From positions 11,100,001 through 11,164,000 of the forward strand of contig CM075992.1 in assembly GCA_038087875.1 (NCBI GenBank): DNA of 64,000 nt, in the 5' to 3' direction. Positions 3,401-33,400 of this stretch are shown piece after piece (within the stretch, counting starts at the first letter, position 1; the number at the start of each line of letters is the position of its first letter). The notes below the pieces were generated by a model, which worked only from the letters and a program-made list of their open reading frames with translations, was not told the origin of the DNA and did not search any database. The DNA comes from Malacoraja senta (Eukaryota). The position numbers were made by a program, and so were the translations under genes.

Positions 3401-6400
3401 TGCTGCCTTACGGCTCCAGACACCCGGAATTGTGCTGTACGCTTCGGCGTCCATGACACTGTTGTGCCATTTTCGTCGCACCAGGATGTAATCTAGCTGG
3501 CACTTTTCTTCTGTGCACCAGTCCTGATGTGTCCACAGCTTTCCTTGGCACCTTTTGAACATGATGTTGGCTGCTAGGAGTCTATACTCCTGGAGAAAGC
3601 TGCCAAGTTGTTGACCATTCCGGTTAGTGTCACCAGTGTGATAGATGTAACAGGCATCCTCCAGTCCGAGGCGGACATTGAAGTCCCCAAGCACAGCCAG
3701 AAAATTGTGCACAGGTACTCGCTCCATCGCAACTTGGAGGACAAGGGACACAAAACTGCTCACAATGCTCTGACAGTGCCTCATAAAGCCTCAGCATTAC
3801 ATCCCTATTTTTATATTCTAGCTCTCTGGAAAGAAATGCTAACATTGTATTTATTTTCCTTACTACCAATTCAACGTGCAAATTAACCTTTTGGGAATTC
3901 TGCTCCAGCATTCCTATGTCCCTCCGCACCTCCACTTTCTGAATCCTCTGCCCATCTAGAAAATAGTCTACTAGCAAAATATTCCTACTCCCAAAGTGCA
4001 TGACTGCACACTTTGCTATGGTGTATTCCCTCTGCCACTTCTTTGGCCACTCTCTCAACCTATCCAAGACCTTCTGCAGAATCCCTGCCTCGCTGACACT
4101 ACCTACCCCTCCACCTATCTTCGTTTCATCCACAAACTTGACCACAAAGCCTTCAATTCCATCATCCAAATCATGAATATACAACGCCAAGTCTAGCGGC
4201 CCCAAACCAACCCATGCGGATCTCCACTAGTCACTGGCAGCCAACCAGAGAAAGCCCCCTTTATTCCCACTCTTTGCCTCTATAATCTTAACAACCATTG
4301 AAGTCAGGCTAATCGGCCTATAGTTTCCCCTCTTTTGCTTTGTTGCCTTCTTGAATAGCGGAGTAACATTTGGAATTTTCCAGTCCTCTGGGACCACTCC
4401 TGACTCAAGTAATTCTTGAAAGATCACCAGTAATGCCTCCACAATCTCTAATGCTATCTCTTTCAGAACTGTGGGGTGTTGTCCATCTGATCCAGGTGAC
4501 TTATCCACCTTCAGACCTTTCAGCTTCTCTTTAGTAATAGCAACTCCACTATCTTCTACCCCCTAACTCTCTTGAAATACAGACATGTTGCTGGTGTCTT
4601 CGTCTGTAAAGACTGGTACAAAAAACGTATTTAATTCATCTGCCATTTCATTATTCCNNNNNNNNNNNNNNNNNNNNNNNNNNNNNNNNNNNNNNNNNNN
4701 NNNNNNNNNNNNNNNNNNNNNNNNNNNNNNNNNNNNNNNNNNNNNNNNNNNNNNNNNNNNNNNNNNNNNNNNNNNNNNNNNNNNNNNNNNNNNNNNNNNN
4801 NNNNNNNNNNNNNNNNNNNNNNNNNNNNNNNNNNNNNNNNNNNNNNNNNNNNNNNNNGTGCTTCTCATACTCCAGGTGCTGCCTCACCACTATGATGGAC
4901 CATAGTCAAAGATCTTCCTTATTTCTAAACATAAAAGTTTTTTGCAATAAGGGCCAATGTGCTATCTTGCCTTCCTAACTACTTTCTTCAGCCTGCTAAC
5001 GTTTTGCAACTCCTGCAGTAGAACACATGACTTCTCTACTTCCGTCATAGAACATATACAAAACATTGAACATAGAATAGTACAGCACAGGAACAGGTTC
5101 TTTCACCCACAAGGTCTGTGCCTAACTTGATGTCAAGAGCAACATATCTGCCGGCATAATCCATATTCCACCATATCCTGCACATCCATGTGCTTATGCA
5201 TAAGTCTATTAAATGCCACTATCGTAACTGCCTCCATCTCCACCCCGGCAACTTGTTCCAGGCACCCACCATCCTTTGTGTAAAAAAAGCCTTGCCCCAC
5301 ACATCTCCTTTAAACTTTGTCCCTCTCACCTTAAAGCTATGCCCTCTAATATTTGACATTTCGATCCTGGAAAATAAGTTCTGACTATCTCCCCTATCTA
5401 TGCCTCATTTGCAACTCTCCTCCATTTAGATAATGTTCTACCTTTGAATTCCTCTTCCAGTGCATGACCTCACATCTTCCACATTAAACTCCATTTCCTA
5501 ACTTTTCGTTCTTCAATCTCTGTAGAGTCAGAGTCATAGAGTCAAAGAGTGATACAGTGTGGAAACAGGCCACTTCCCTGGGCTTGGTCCATATCCCTCC
5601 AAACCTGTCCTTTCCATGTACCTGTCAAACTGTTTCTTAAACAATGGGATAGTCCCAGCCTCAACTACCTCCTCTGGCAGCTTGTTCCATACCCTGACCA
5701 CCCTTTGTGTGAAAAAGGTACCCCTCTGATTCCTATTAAATCTTTTCCTTTTCATCTTGAACCTATGTCCGCTGGTCCTTGATTCCCCTACGCTGGGCAA
5801 AAGACTCTGTGCATCTGCCCGATCTATTCCCCTCTTATACACCTCTACAAGATCCTCCTGTGCTCCATGGAATAAAGAACAAGCCTACTCAACCTCTCCC
5901 TATAGTTCACACCTTCTAATCCTGGCAACATAAATCTTTTCTGAACCCTTTCAAGCTTGACAATATCTTTCCTATAACATGGTGCCCAGAACTGAACACA
6001 ATATTCAAAATGCGGTCTCACCAACATCTTATACAACTGCAACATGACCTCCCAACTTCTGTACTCAATACTCTGACTGATGAAGGCCAAAGTGGCAAAA
6101 GCCTTTTTGACCACATCTACCTGCGACTCAACCCTCAAGGAACCATGCACCTGTACTACTTGATCCCTCTGCTCTACAACACTAACCAGAGACCTACCAT
6201 TTATTGTGTAGGTCCTGCCCTTGTTTGATGTCCCAAAATGCAACACTTCACATTTCTCCGTATTAAATTCTATCAACCATTCCTCCGCCCACTTGGCCAA
6301 TCGATCCAGATCCTGCTGCAATCGTTCACAACCATCTTCACTATCTGCAAAACCACTAACTTTTGTATCATCAGCAAATCTTGCCTTGTATGTTCTCATC

Positions 6401-27400: not shown

Positions 27401-30400
27401 GCACCTATCCCTATGGTGCAACACTTTATACACACTCAGTCAGAAACACCTCATTCACCATTACCCTCTGCATCCTCTCACCAAGCGCAATGTGGCTCCA
27501 GTTTATGCCCCAGACAGAGTCAGAGTCATAGGGTGATACAGTGTGGAATCAGGCCCTTCGGCCTAACTCCCCTACACCGGCCAACAATGTCCCAGCTACA
27601 ATAGACCCACTTGCCTGCGACGTATGTACTGAAGTCTTCTGGATTCTATGTACCTTAATCTTCTGGATCAGCCCACCATGTGGGGCTTTGTCAAATGTCT
27701 TGCTGAAGTCCATATGGGCAACATCTTCTGTCCTCCTTCATCAATCTCTGTTGCCTCCTCGAAAAACCCCATCACAATTTCCCCACACAAATACATGCTG
27801 ACCAAACCTAACCATTCCTGCCTTTCCAAACATTTTCTGTCCCTCAGAACTCCCTCCAATATGTTCCCAACCACTGACACAAGGTTCACTCGCCTGTACT
27901 TATCTGGCTTACCACTTCTGCCTTAAAACAAAATCTTCTTGCGGTCAAAGCAACATAGTTTGCCTTCCTGACTGCCCCCTGCACCAGTACATTAACTTCC
28001 AGTGGTTTGTCTAGAAACATAGAAAATAGGTGCAGGAGTAGGCCATTCGGCCCTTCGAGCCAGCACTGCCATTCAATATGAGCATAGCTGATCATCCAGA
28101 ATCAGTACCCCATCCCTGCTTTCTCCCCATATACCTTCATTCCATTAGCTCTAAGACCTATATCCAACTCTCTCTTGAATACATCCAGTGAATTGGCCTC
28201 CACTGCCCTTTGAAGCAGAGAATGCCATGAATTCACAACTCTCTGGATGAAAAAGTCTTTCCTCATCTCAGTCCTAAATGGCCTACCTCCTTTTCTTAAA
28301 CTGTGACCCCTGGTTCTGGAATCCCCAAACATCGGGAAATTTTTTCCTGGATTTAGCCTGTTCAATCCCTTAAGAATTTTATATAAGATCCCATCTCATC
28401 CTTCTAAATTCCAGTGAATATAAGCCCAGTCGATTCAATGTTTCATCATATGTCAGTCCTGCCAACCCAGGAATTAACCGGGTGAATCTACACTGCACTC
28501 CCTCTATAGAATGTCCTTCCTCAAATTAGGAGGCCAAAACTGTACACAATGTACAACTGCTGAAGAACCAACTTGCTCCTATACTCAAATCCGCTCGCTA
28601 TGAAGGCCAACATGCCATTTGCTTTCTTCACGGCCTGCTGTACCTGCATGCTTACTTTCAGTGACTGATGTACAAGGACACCCAGGTCTCGTTGCACCTC
28701 CCCTTCTCCTAATCTGACACCATTCAGATAATCTGCCTTATTGTTTTTGCCAACAAAGTGGATAACCTCACATTTATCCACATTATACTGCATCTGCTAT
28801 GCATCTGCCCACTCACCCAACCTATCCAAATCACCCTGCAGCCTCATAGCATCCCCCTCGCAGGTCACACTGCTACCGAGATTTGTGTCATCCGCAAACT
28901 TGGAGATGTTACATTTAATTCCTTTGTCTAAATCATTAATATATATTGTATATTGTAAATATTGTCTACCAGGGATGGAGCAAGATCTTTCACCAACAGC
29001 CCCAACTTGTTCTCAAGGAGGTCACATGTGGCCTCTCTCCAGCTCAGGGGGAGGTGGGTTGGGGTGGGATAGGGAGACTGAGAGGCAGATATGAGGGGTG
29101 CAGTGGAGATGGATGGGATAAGGTCACTGATCAATCATCAAGGGAAAGAATATAGCTAAAAATGATAAAGCCCTTCCCAGCCACTACTCCCTGCAGCACA
29201 AAGACCAGAAGGCTCGAGGCCACCGACGGCAGGAGAACAAAGAAGGGAAGAGATTGAACTTGTTTTTGCCTTCCATCACAGTGAGGAATGTGGAGGAGTC
29301 ACTGTGGTGGATGTTTATGTTAAAATGTATTTTGTGTGTCTCGGTATGACTGTATGACTGTATGGCAAATCAAATTTCTCGTATATTGCAAAACATACTT
29401 GGCTAATAAAGTATGATAATGATTATGAAGACCAACAGTGCCAAGCTGGGTCCACACAGAATTGAGTGAGGTAGCAATGTACCCATGACGGGAATAGTCG
29501 ATCCCTGCCAAGCCTCACACATGGCAGGGTGGCTGTCTGAGCAGCAATGTTACTGGTGTGGGAACATTCCTGTACGTGTGTGTGTGTGTGTGTGCAAAGT
29601 GTAAACATTTTACAGTGTCATTTTGAAATAACATTTTTTTACTCTTTCCCCAGTTGTTGGTTGGATCTAAACTCGGGATTTATCTCGGCTTTCCTGGCTC
29701 CGGTCTGTGTGATTATTCTGGTAAGTTTGGAAAAATATGAAACAGAGAATGTCTGTTGAATTCAGAATGTGAGCTGATGGGTTTTGGAACCACTAATGAT
29801 GATAGGACATCAACCATGAATGGCAGGTCGGAGGAACAGAGGGGCCTTGGAGCATTAACCTGTGCTGTAATCTTGGGTATTAATATTTAGCAGTATCGGA
29901 TTGGATGAAAGTTCTCCAAAGAGCAATGGTAAAGATTATGTCTATCACTGGTTTTCGTGATAAATCTTTAGACAGTCCATAAATATTTGTAGATTCACAA
30001 TGCATATGAAAAGATTTGAAGTAATCCACTCAGGGCTGATGGAACACTACGGTAATATCTACATCACTGTCTTTTTGCCCACCTACTGACTTGCAGCGGA
30101 GAGGCATGCACTGCGGACGATCTCCGCGGAGGCACAGATGTGGCACAGGCTGTGGCAAAGCGATGGCAGAACGTCGTCTGACACACGAGTGGACAAACTG
30201 TCTTTTAAAAAATGATTGTTGAGGATCAATGTAGAGGCAAACATGCCCAAATGGAACTATTTATGCACTGCTAGATGTTTCTATGAAAATGGAAATGAAT
30301 TAAAGATAACATCTGCTGCAGTTGTATAGTGCCCTAGTGAGACCACACCTGGAGTATTGGGTGCAGTTTTGGTCCCCTAATTTGAGGAAGGACATTCTTG

Positions 30401-33400
30401 CTATTGAGGGAGTGCAGCGTAGGTTCAAAAGGTTAATTCCTGGGATAGTGGGACTGTCATGTGCTGAGAGAATGGAGCGGCTGGGGTTGTATAATCTGGA
30501 GTTTAGAAGGATGAGAGGGTATCTTATTGAAACATATAAGATTATTAAGGGTTTGAACACGCTAGAGGCAGGAAACATGTTCCCGATGTTGGGGGAGTCC
30601 AGAACCAGGGGCCACAGTTTCAGAATAAGGGGTAAACCATTTAGAACGGAGACGAGGAAACACTTTTTCTCACAGAGAGTTGTGAGTCTGTGGATTCTCT
30701 GCCTCAGAGGGCGGTGGAGGCCGGTTCTCTGGATACTTTCAAGAGAGGGCTAGATAGGGCTCTTAAAGATAGCGGAGTCAGGGGATATGGGGAGAAGGCA
30801 GGAACGGGGTTCTGATTGGGGATGATCAGCCATGATCACATTAAATGGCGGTGCTGGCTCGAAGGGCCGAATGGCCTACTCCAGCACCTATTGTCTATTG
30901 TCTATTGATTTTCCAATACTCCTCTATGTACCTGAAACCAGCTGTTATGGCCTTGCCTCTTCCCATTCATGCTAAGTTCAAAGCACAAGCTCCCCAGTGA
31001 GGCAAAAGTAAAGTATTAAATACAAAAATATGAGTGTCAGCACCCACCTTCGCAGCCTCTGTTGTCTGTGAAGTTACGTTGTTTGCTCGGGTGGAAATAT
31101 CCTGCCTTACAGATACAGTAGTAGTTTCCCACTGTGTTGTGACTGTCAAGAGAGAGCTAGATAGGGCTGTTAAAGATAGCGGAGTCAGGGGATATGGGGA
31201 GAAGGCAGGAACGGGGTACTGATTGGGGATGATCAGCCATGATCACATTGAATGGCGGTGCTGGCTCGAAGGGCCGAATGGCCTATTCCTACACCTATTG
31301 TCTATTATCAAGAAAATATTATTTCAATAAATCACTGTCTTAATCGGAATAATGTGGCTTTTTCTTTTCTTGGAAGGTCAATGGAGGATTTTTTATTATC
31401 ACTGTGTTGAAACTGGCTGAAAAGTTTTCAAGTATCAATCCTGATATGGGCCAGTTGAAGAAAATCAGGTGAGAACAACTGGTCTGGCTGCTGGTACCTT
31501 CCTTGGTTGATACGGTATACAGGTCATGCAAATGGCCAGCAGTTGTCCTGTTCCCATCCTTTTCCCATTATTCACATGAAGCTGCTGGTGCTGACAGGTC
31601 CTAGAGTCATACTGCATGGAAACAGGCCCTTTGGCCCAACTCGTCCATGCTGACCAAGATGTCCCATCTAAGCCATTCCCATTTGCTGTTCTGATTTGGG
31701 ATTCACGCACTGATAGCTGGGCCCTTTCCAAACTTACCAAAAGGGGAAATAACATCAGGCAGATAGAGTGGACCAGATAGAGAACAGTCGGCTCCAGGGT
31801 CATAGGTTATGTACCACACGTGGAAGGTCAAGCATGTGAATCACTCAGTTGTCATTCCTGTCCTGTTATCTGTCGAGGTTTCTGAATGTGCTTAGGGGAT
31901 GGGCATTCTCTAGTTACACCTCAGTGTGAGAAGGAATCAGCTTTGCATTATTCTGTTTGAAACAAACATTTCTCAGCAGAGGTCAACAATCATTTTTTCT
32001 TTTCCAATAAATCCTTTGATGTTTGGTGTGCCACAAGTCATGGCTCACTTATTGTATCAGCTGACTGGCTGATATCTCTATCGCTGCAGTCTGTGCATTG
32101 AAGTCAAAACAAATAATTGAAAGAGAGGATCTAGAAGCAGCAGGAAGTTTATATTGCACCTTAAAGTATGCACTGTAGTGGGTGACACAAAGTAAAGTAT
32201 TGTCGCATTCAGCTTCTCGTGCCTCTTGTTTTAGGGTCTTTACCTTCACTGCTGTCGCTCAGCTCTGCCTCCTGGGATGTACTTGGATATTTGGCATGTT
32301 GCACTTCCGGACGGAAACAATTGTCATGGCCTACATCTTCACTGTGATCAACAGCATGCAAGGAATGTTCATCTTCATCCTGCACTGCCTCCTTAACAAG
32401 CAGGTAAGTCCCCTTGAATTTGTTCAGCAACGTTCACTCAAACAGTATGTAGATGGCCAACCAGAGAGAGGGCAACACTGGACGTTCCATTGGGGAATGA
32501 GGCTGGGCAAGTGACTGGCCTGTGTGGGCGAGCACATTGTGACCAGTCACCAGAATTATGGACTCAAGTCAACGGTATAGCCATGGGCATTCACATAGGC
32601 CCCAGCTATGCCTGCCTTTATTGAAATTGGCAGCTGCAGGATTAATAAGGTTATCATAGAAGGGGATTTTAACTTTCCAAATATTAACTGGGAATATCAT
32701 AGTGCAAAAGGTTTAGACAGTGTAGAATTGGTCAAATATATTCAGGAACATTTCCTCCGGCAATATAAAGAGAGCCCTTCTCCAGAGAAGGCAATGCTTG
32801 ATCCCGTCTTCGGAAATTGGAATGGACAAGTGGATGAAGTGTTCATGGATGAGCCTTTTGGGACCAGCGGCCATTGTCTATTAGGTTGAGATTAGTTAAG
32901 GGTAGAGACCAGGTGGGCCCACGAATTAAAATCCTAAATTGGGGCAAGGCCAACATTGAAGGTATTAGACAGAAACTTGCTCATGTTGGTTTGAGAAGGT
33001 TGTTTGAAGGAAAAGGACCATCCAGAAATGGGATGTTTGTAAACATCTGCTGACAAGAAGCCATGACCTTCATGTTCCTGTTAGAGCGAACGGTAACGCA
33101 GGCAAACATAAGGCAGCTTGGATTATGTGAGAAATTGAGGCTCAGGTCAAGTGTAAGGAGGCATGAGACAGGTATAGGCAGCTGGGATCAAGTGTATCCC
33201 TAGAGGAATTTTGGGAACTGAGGAGCAAGCTAAAAAAGGAAATCGGGAGGGCAAAAATGGTGTAGTAAAGACAAATAATATTAAGAATAATTGCAAGAGA
33301 TTTTATAAGTACTTTATGGGGAAAAGGGTAGCGAGAATGGGAACCCTCAAGAATCAAAGTGGTCAATTCTGTGTGAAACTACAAGAGATGGGCAAGGTCT

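What the first reader, a model, noticed from the sequence alone, without database searches (positions are those of the whole stretch)
30908..31145. Orphan antisense EGF exon fragment embedded in an intron of an EGF-TM7 gene
Seen: between two same-subfamily CR1 3' ends lies a 238-bp non-repeat piece. Its minus strand encodes [31 protein letters not shown], then a phase-1 G|GT donor and about 140 bp of intron-like sequence. The N-terminal half of the domain and the acceptor are missing. Established: ADGRE N-termini consist of such phase-1 Ca-binding EGF exons. Inference: genomic or pre-mRNA (unspliced) sequence from the 5' part of this gene or a cluster paralogue was copied inverted into its own 7TM region, possibly linked to the CR1 insertion or repair. 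It could pair with the sense EGF exon in the pre-mRNA and influence EGF exon skipping, which is known to generate CD97 isoforms; that role is speculative.
Basis: partly seen in the sequence, partly recalled or inferred. Interest (0 to 1): 0.7.

Follow-up and report, generated by a model that had tools for sequence, protein, structure and literature searches.

The report
Exon scrap dragged in by repair
A backwards 236-base copy of half an exon and its intron sits inside an older jumping-gene fragment in a receptor gene, likely of a skate; it was likely dragged in when a DNA break was patched from a matching jumping-gene copy in the same gene cluster, and is probably an inert scar.

Summary
The piece is real: 30908-31143 is 96 of 153 bases of an EGF exon plus 140 bases of intron, antisense to the host ADGRE-like gene, 93-97% identical to this cluster's EGF repeats. 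An outside run holds the junction without mismatch. It is not an orphan between two separate CR1 insertions. Of 8 paralogous introns, 2 are empty and 6 hold one CR1 with an ATC duplication; here that same CR1 carries a 407-base insert. Every EGF repeat has a CR1 of the same family 140 bases behind the exon. Diagnostic bases show the left CR1 switching from resident to EGF-repeat type, and the right CR1 switching back to resident type, with a 5-of-7 microhomology at the exon junction. Best reading (0.7): ectopic gene conversion between two CR1 copies overran into flank and slipped back 407 bases. An RNA template is not excluded (0.18). No extant donor fits throughout, but 119 bases are identical to the host's own second EGF repeat. 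A splicing role is unsupported and untested: partners lie 69-82 kb upstream and paralogues already have longer inverted CR1 pairs. The scan noted similar exon-in-CR1 captures in other genomes. Ordinary; interest 0.22.

The parts
29654..29720 (+). Host ADGRE-like 7TM exon upstream of the intron (CWLDL...VCVIIL)
   Evidence: tblastn with P0003; splice sites read
30311..30313 (+). Left copy of the ATC target-site duplication of the resident CR1
   Evidence: Empty paralogues L028 and L029 have ATC once; filled ones have it twice
30314..30556 (+). 5' part of the resident, 5'-truncated CR1 (7TM-intron lineage)
   Evidence: Carries 6 of 6 resident-diagnostic bases: 30315, 30426, 30428, 30461, 30494, 30556
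30557..30620 (+). Zone of the first, homology-based switch from resident CR1 to EGF-repeat CR1 (inferred)
   Evidence: Last resident base 30556, first EGF-type base 30621; the right limit rests on that one site
30621..30907 (+). 3' end and TCTATTG tail of a CR1 copied from an EGF repeat
   Evidence: EGF-type bases at 30621 and 30843; 0 of 5 resident bases; runs on into the donor's flank
30908..31047 (-). 140 bases of the intron that follows the EGF exon in the donor, with GT at 31047-31046
   Evidence: 2-8 substitutions in 141 compared bases against 17 units (misoriented L043 redone)
31048..31143 (-). 3' 96 of 153 bases of a calcium-binding EGF exon, no acceptor
   Evidence: 31025-31143 is identical to the host's EGF repeat at C16:11056335
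31142..31148 (+). Exon-CR1 junction with imperfect microhomology: window ACTGTCA, donor exon ACARTCA, CR1 ACTTTCA
   Evidence: unique in G000; held by a 61-base contig of run X1 with 0 mismatches
31149..31199 (+). CR1 piece equal to 30742-30792 that is not of resident type
   Evidence: Lacks 3 of 3 resident-diagnostic bases at 31162, 31196, 31199
31200..31285 (+). Zone of the last, homology-based return to the resident CR1 (inferred; before 31250 if the template was EGF-type)
   Evidence: 31250 lacks the EGF-type base; 31286 is resident
31286..31306 (+). Original 3' tail of the resident CR1
   Evidence: Resident-diagnostic bases at 31286 and 31291; followed by the paralogues' flank
31307..31309 (+). 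Right copy of the ATC target-site duplication
31377..31468 (+). Host 7TM exon downstream (VNGGFF...KKIR); acceptor region as in paralogues

Best explanation
The piece is flank that was likely carried along when a break in an older intronic CR1 was repaired by copying from a same-family CR1 lying 140 bases behind an EGF exon of this gene cluster, and it is probably inert. Shown: one CR1 with an ATC duplication was already in this intron; it now holds a 407-base insert made of a donor CR1 3' end, 140 bases of intron and 96 bases of exon; the left CR1 changes from resident to EGF-repeat type between 30556 and 30621; after the exon junction the sequence resumes in CR1 407 bases back, is non-resident for at least 51 bases, and is resident again by 31286. 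Inferred: a broken end invaded the homologous donor CR1 as DNA, synthesis ran past the CR1 tail into intron and exon, slipped back on a 5-of-7 microhomology (or copied a tandem duplication already present in a donor now lost or unassembled), and annealed to the other broken end. The antisense orientation follows from geometry alone: the donor CR1s are antisense to their genes and the resident CR1 is sense.
For: Three states among 9 paralogous introns: empty 2, single CR1 of 588-598 bases 5 (a sixth, L024, has the same CR1 with a further insert, 1211), window 996. Donors match through the left CR1. Left CR1: 6 of 6 resident-diagnostic bases 5' of 30557, 0 of 5 3' of 30754 (Fisher p 0.002 for that split), and 2 of 2 EGF-type bases (30621 C: 13 of 14 EGF units, 0 of 6 resident, 2 of 27 unrelated copies; 30843 A: 16 of 18, 0 of 6, 1 of 27). 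Right CR1: 0 of 3, then 2 of 2 resident bases. The window's gene is not basal to the six:'s list of informative flank sites none has the window siding with the empty pair against all six, and the tree puts it in one clade with them at support 100. No poly(A), no CR1 tail and no new duplication at the exon junction. All 25 other copies of the flank are in the cluster, so the donor CR1s have left no dispersed transductions. Known chemistry: homeologous LINE-LINE repair and 2-5 base template switches (PMC7407515, passages).
Against: No extant donor is closest throughout: L018 is best overall (19 of 522 differences), L004 is identical over the exon but among the worst over the intron (8 of 141) and has a 5-base CR1 deletion that the insert lacks. 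The left limit of the donor tract rests on one site (30621). The model needs three switches. No donor with the junction pre-formed is in the assembly (1 match). The donor CR1s are near full length, so an RNA template was available in principle, and the sequence crosses no splice junction that could tell DNA from RNA. Inertness is inferred, not tested.
Confidence: 0.7

Rival explanations
1. Same structure, RNA template: a broken end in the resident CR1 primed by homology on RNA (a read-through transcript of an EGF-intron CR1, or the host's unspliced pre-mRNA, which holds that CR1 in antisense), and a reverse transcriptase jumped 407 bases by microhomology.
For: Donor CR1s keep ORF1 (GDSL esterase), endonuclease and RT pieces and reach about 4.3 kb. 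Either strand's synthesis has a matching RNA. Class 2 templated insertions are attributed to RNA patches (PMC5110952, passages); 15 of 21 endonuclease-independent L1 insertions carried non-L1 DNA (PMC1920257, passages). Earlier notes e1-7805861 and e1-10283575 propose CR1 template jumps in other genomes (unchecked).
Against: Both outer joins are by long homology at the matching CR1 position, as in recombination; the 3' tail is the resident's, so there was no new target-primed start; no splice, poly(A) or new duplication; no transduced copies outside the cluster.
Confidence: 0.18
2. A 407-base circle (CR1 tail, intron, half exon), cut out of an EGF repeat at the microhomology, integrated into the resident CR1 by one crossover with a short repaired gap.
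For: Gives the same order of parts in fewer steps and explains why both CR1 copies lack the three resident bases at 30755-30792 equivalents.
Against: The EGF-type base at 30621 lies outside such a circle and would need an independent mutation. No unit with the matching clean 407-base deletion was seen among the 25 other matches; L045 lost a different, 365-base stretch.
Confidence: 0.07
3. Classical retrotransposition: a 3' transduction from the EGF-intron CR1, or two independent CR1 insertions that happen to flank a captured piece.
For: The order CR1 tail then 3' flank looks like a transduction, and the donor CR1 is near full length.
Against: The outer ends, the ATC duplication and both terminal sets of diagnostic bases belong to one older CR1 shared with 6 paralogues; the flank ends mid-exon without tail or duplication; CR1-type elements are thought to need their own 3' end to prime (PMC3747384, passages).
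Confidence: 0.02
4. Assembly artefact joining an EGF repeat into the 7TM intron through the shared CR1.
For: The cluster is repetitive; C2194 near-duplicates part of it; the host gene spans two 200-N gaps.
Against: Run X1 holds 31114-31174 with 0 mismatches at depth 28; the insert has private changes (30811, 30883, 30945, a 2-base deletion at 31007) found in no donor; a microhomology junction is not an assembler join.
Confidence: 0.02
5. Whatever its origin, the piece acts as an intramolecular antisense element that pairs with EGF exons and their donor sites in the pre-mRNA and promotes skipping.
For: Computed duplexes of -423 to -439 kcal/mol with 3 of 3 intact host EGF repeats; the insert extends an existing inverted repeat over the 5' splice site; inverted repeats can alter splicing (PMC11263572, passages).
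Against: Partners lie 68.6-81.5 kb upstream, beyond several introns, and splicing is mostly co-transcriptional (own knowledge); present in 1 of 9 paralogues; it has gathered private changes; CR1-only pairing of -967 to -987 kcal/mol is computed without it, using L030's CR1 as stand-in. No RNA tested.
Confidence: 0.05

Closest known systems
Ectopic gene conversion between homeologous LINE copies at a double-strand break (Tremblay, Jasin and Chartrand 2000, seen only as cited in PMC7407515; one-sided invasion, Belmaaza and Chartrand 1994, seen only as a reference in PMC4888836)
   Same: Recipient and donor are copies of one LINE family; the tract begins and ends in homology; the outer arrangement is kept.
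   Different: Here the tract runs out of the LINE into host intron and exon and has an internal 407-base backward jump; it is a germline fossil, not an induced break.
FoSTeS / MMBIR template switching (PMC4888836 and PMC7407515, passages)
   Same: A switch at a few bases of microhomology to a nearby template, then a return to the original sequence.
   Different: Only one of three joins is microhomology; the other two use long LINE homology; no replication-fork link can be shown.
Class 2 templated sequence insertion polymorphisms (PMC5110952, passages)
   Same: A short patch from elsewhere, no duplication, no poly(A), microhomology at a junction.
   Different: Those are described as landing seemingly at random by end joining, likely from RNA; this one is placed by homology into the matching position of a related repeat.
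Endonuclease-independent L1 insertions with extra nucleotides (PMC1920257, passages)
   Same: LINE sequence joined to non-LINE DNA without target-primed hallmarks.
   Different: No target deletion here, and the recipient is a pre-existing copy of the same element, which that paper found at only 3 of 21 loci.
LINE 3' transduction (own knowledge)
   Same: LINE 3' end followed by its genomic 3' flank at a new place.
   Different: No new tail or duplication; the ends belong to an older resident element.

Membership tests
ADGRE / EGF-TM7 host gene | Tandem phase-1 calcium-binding EGF exons, GAIN/GPS, secretin-family 7TM, collinear | tested here: met
   96% to skate ADGRE-like proteins over one 56-residue exon. 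5' exons not mapped; one N gap lies between the GPS and first TM exon.
EGF_CA domain (fragment) | Reaches Pfam's gathering score | tested here: not met
   19.5 bits against 27 for the fragment; 33.5 for a whole donor exon. It is a half domain.
CR1-group LINE | ORF1 with esterase, ORF2 with endonuclease and RT, tandem-repeat tail, no LTR | tested here: met
   Lipase_GDSL_2, Exo_endo_phos and RVT_1 above cut-off in the donor-type copies; TCTATTG tails. That esterase marks CR1-group ORF1 is recalled; the family name HER1 for sharks and rays is from a table in PMC3747384 and was not compared by sequence.
Ectopic LINE-LINE gene conversion | Recipient element pre-exists; donor-type bases replace recipient bases over a tract bounded by homology | tested here: met
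Ectopic LINE-LINE gene conversion | A single identifiable donor | tested here: inconclusive
   Best match differs by segment among 18 units
Ectopic LINE-LINE gene conversion | DNA, not RNA, template | not testable with these tools
   The tract crosses no splice junction
LINE 3' transduction / target-primed insertion | New 3' tail or poly(A) and new target-site duplication around the insert | tested here: not met
   Only the older ATC duplication shared with 6 paralogues
Class 2 templated insertion | No duplication, no poly(A), microhomology at junction | tested here: met
Class 2 templated insertion | End-joined on both sides without long homology | tested here: not met
   Both outer joins lie in CR1 homology
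Cis antisense splicing regulator | Duplex forms in vivo and changes exon use | not testable with these tools
   No RNA run with half of the words or more was listed; no RNA run was laid

The most novel reading that the evidence does not exclude
The inverted CR1 pairs inside these receptor genes act as recombination handles, and the captured half exon has since served as an inverted pseudo-exon that exchanges sequence with the live EGF exon 74.6 kb upstream: 119 bases are identical to the host's second EGF repeat, including two rare amino-acid-changing bases (31113, 31125), while the adjoining intron and CR1 are not closest to that repeat. If the flow was from fragment to exon, a repair scar has edited the ligand-binding domain.
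Probability: 0.12. Interest if true: 0.55.

Novelty: new member of a known kind. Interest (0 to 1): 0.22.

Why it matters
As it stands it is a well-resolved fossil: empty, single-CR1 and converted states all survive in one cluster, so the switch points can be read base by base. It shows that sense and antisense CR1 copies within ADGRE genes recombine and can move exon sequence about, which bears on how EGF repeat number and sequence turn over in this expanded cluster. It would matter more if the fragment proved to be a conversion donor to a live exon, or if an RNA template could be shown. It gives no sign of a new regulatory system.

Tried and rejected
Search for a donor with the junction pre-formed: 1 match in G000, the window itself. 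Donor tree: the insert is a lone branch outside the clade holding the host's three full units (support 98); the L043 row there was misoriented and invalid, redone (20, 6 and 5 differences in CR1, intron, exon). L045 as reciprocal product: its CR1 breakpoint falls in the same 7 bases and its exon shares 31125 T, but it keeps exon bases that the insert also holds, its remaining CR1 has many differences absent from the insert, and its inverted piece is neither resident nor EGF type; rejected as the source. A hairpin at the CR1 breakpoint folds at only -5.9 kcal/mol, no shuffle control; not used. Sense-strand splice scan: one acceptor-like site in the captured flank (30976), no donor-like site by my pattern; crude. 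Reads: (4 runs, 1.4 kb) was swamped by CR1 and did not test the junction, though contigs of X1 and X4 cross the resident CR1's left end; 1 of 4 runs held the junction; X9 did not (no proof of absence); nothing was laid from X21 and X22 (no test). Paper searches showed nothing on this locus; (ADGRE, EGF-TM7, gene conversion, shark; at least 3 terms) gave 0 papers. No supplements were read.

Full report
Observation. The window is G000:C16:11100001-11164000. The fragment scores under Pfam's EGF_CA cut-off, a whole donor exon above it. It matches 25 other places, all on C16 or C2194. A search with a whole exon and acceptor found 26 places: 23 complete, and 3 partial of which the window is one. The donors have the acceptor and 57 more exon bases that the window lacks.

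Host gene. One exon is 96% identical to skate ADGRE-like proteins, so the animal is likely a skate or close kin. tblastn with such a protein lays out a collinear plus-strand gene: three intact EGF repeats at C16:11049380, 11056335 and 11062294, GAIN and GPS exons, and the 7TM exons in the window. The 14 stretches printed are open. The 5' exons were not mapped, and 200-N gaps lie at C16:11039421 and window 4658-4857, so the link between EGF array and 7TM rests on scaffolding. The finding lies in intron 29721-31376.

The copied block is larger than 238 bases. Donor loci align through the left CR1 as well, from 30313 to 31143, because each EGF repeat has a CR1 in antisense 140 bases behind the exon. 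In the host's units that element is near full length, with esterase, endonuclease and RT pieces.

Paralogues give the earlier states. Nine copies of this 7TM intron were found. Two are empty, with ATC once. Five hold one CR1 of 588-598 bases between two ATC copies, a sixth holds the same CR1 with a further insert, and the window holds 996 bases between the same two ATC copies. So one CR1 was there first, and 407 bases were added later.

Diagnostic bases. I compared 6 resident CR1s, 18 EGF-repeat units (6 C2194 copies dropped: 5 have near twins on C16, 1 is partial; L045 not included) and 27 unrelated copies (29 fetched, 2 duplicates dropped; chosen as best matches to the left CR1, which works against calling resident bases rare). 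Eleven sites mark the resident lineage and two the EGF lineage (first pass). The left CR1 has 6 of 6 resident bases up to 30556, 0 of 5 from 30755 on, and both EGF bases. The right CR1 lacks 3 of 3 resident bases up to 31199, lacks the EGF base at 31250, and has 2 of 2 resident bases at 31286 and 31291. One of the resident sites (30879) also occurs in 5 of 18 EGF units. The missing bases are not explained by an early split of this gene: in the flanks it groups with the six at support 100, unresolved among them, and no listed site has it siding with the empty pair against all six. At the exon junction the window reads ACTGTCA, the donors ACARTCA and the CR1 ACTTTCA. This junction occurs once in G000.

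Is it real DNA? Run X1 has a 61-base contig over 31114-31174 with no mismatch at depth 28: 30 letters on each side of 31144, one short of the tool's bridging rule. X1 also holds the L045 junction, so it may be the same species or even the assembly's source and is not independent of the individual, but it is independent of the assembler. X9 showed only the donor continuation; X21 and X22 gave no test. The insert also has private changes, so the event is not recent.

Mechanism. Shown: order of parts, prior state, three switch zones, no tail, poly(A) or new duplication. Inferred: a break or gap in the resident CR1, invasion of a homologous EGF-intron CR1, synthesis past its tail through intron and into the exon, a 407-base slip back at the microhomology, and annealing to the far end. 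A tandem duplication already present in a lost donor gives the same product; L018 shows that CR1 tail duplications occur in these units. Repair of LINE breaks from homeologous LINEs and template switches at 2-5 bases are described in PMC7407515 and PMC4888836 (passages read by term search). An RNA template cannot be excluded, since the donor CR1 could be transcribed into its flank and the host pre-mRNA holds the other strand; PMC5110952 and PMC1920257 (passages) describe RNA patches at breaks. Circle integration fits all but base 30621. Plain 3' transduction fails on the ends.

Donor. None fits throughout. L018 is closest overall (19 of 522), L003 over the intron (2 of 141), and L004, the host's second repeat, over the exon (0 of 95). 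The host's three full units share a 5-base CR1 deletion that the insert lacks. The identical run with L004 is 119 bases against 32-61 for the other 17 units, and includes 31113 A (L004 only) and 31125 T (L004, L018, also L045). By my own arithmetic such a run arises by chance in about 7% of sets of 18 units at 4.5% divergence, so this hints at later conversion or a donor switch, direction unknown.

Function. The captured donor site is on the wrong strand for the host transcript, and the downstream acceptor region is as in paralogues. Pairing with the EGF exons is strong on paper, but they lie 68.6-81.5 kb upstream, and a CR1-only pairing twice as strong is computed without the insert. Inverted repeats can change splicing, and distance weakened the effect in the one case I read (PMC11263572, passages). 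No RNA of this species was tested. The insert is in 1 of 9 paralogues. I take it as neutral.

Verdict. Real, explained by known repair chemistry, unusually well resolved. No paper on the locus turned up in nine searches; PMC3747384 was read in passages, PMC3905857 and PMC4120745 seen only as listings. Earlier notes of this scan report exon pieces at or between CR1 fragments in other genomes (none near this place); they are unchecked and were used only as leads. New member of a known kind; interest 0.22.

Noticed in passing
G000:C16:11049380-11069400 (L036-L038) and the other EGF arrays on C16: The tandemly repeated unit is a 153-base EGF exon plus a near full-length (about 4.3 kb) antisense CR1 140 bases behind it, in 5.8-6.8 kb introns. 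The CR1 was amplified with the exon; its promoter, if active, would read antisense across each EGF exon, a more direct antisense source than the orphan piece.
   Followed up: partly
L045 2915-3650 (G000:C16:12753914-12754650): An EGF unit has lost the exon's 3' part, the intron and the CR1 tail (365 bases), replaced by an inverted 492-base piece of an unrelated CR1 copy without tail. Its CR1 breakpoint lies in the same 7 bases (equal to 30735-30741) as the window's junction; with about ten breakpoints seen in 595 bases this could be chance. Run X1 holds its exon junction too.
   Followed up: partly
G000:C16:11069074-11069393 (L038): The host's fourth EGF unit lacks the acceptor and the 5' part of the exon and has an internal CR1 deletion; no separate 5' half was found in 154 kb.
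   Followed up: partly
G000:C2194 versus C16:11.83-11.89 Mb: Five EGF units on C2194 are near twins of units on C16; likely an uncollapsed second haplotype.
   Followed up: no
L017, L018 (C16:11533807, 11524107) and L010 (C16:11833195): L017 and L018 have a 1-base deletion in the EGF exon; L018 has a duplicated CR1 3' end; L010 lacks a base at the acceptor relative to its twin L007. Broken repeats or sequence errors.
   Followed up: no
L052-L054 (C16:12149343, 12036429, 12031996): Three 7TM paralogues stop matching near the end of the exon equal to 31377-31468 and share an insert of about 0.9 kb in the intron; likely truncated genes.
   Followed up: no
L024 (C16:11735073 region): The same resident CR1 holds an inverted, more diverged CR1 piece of about 620 bases at position 361-365 of the element: a second paralogue in which this CR1 was altered after insertion.
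   Followed up: no
window 4658-4857: A run of 200 N (scaffold gap) inside the host gene, between the GPS exon and the first TM exon.
   Followed up: no
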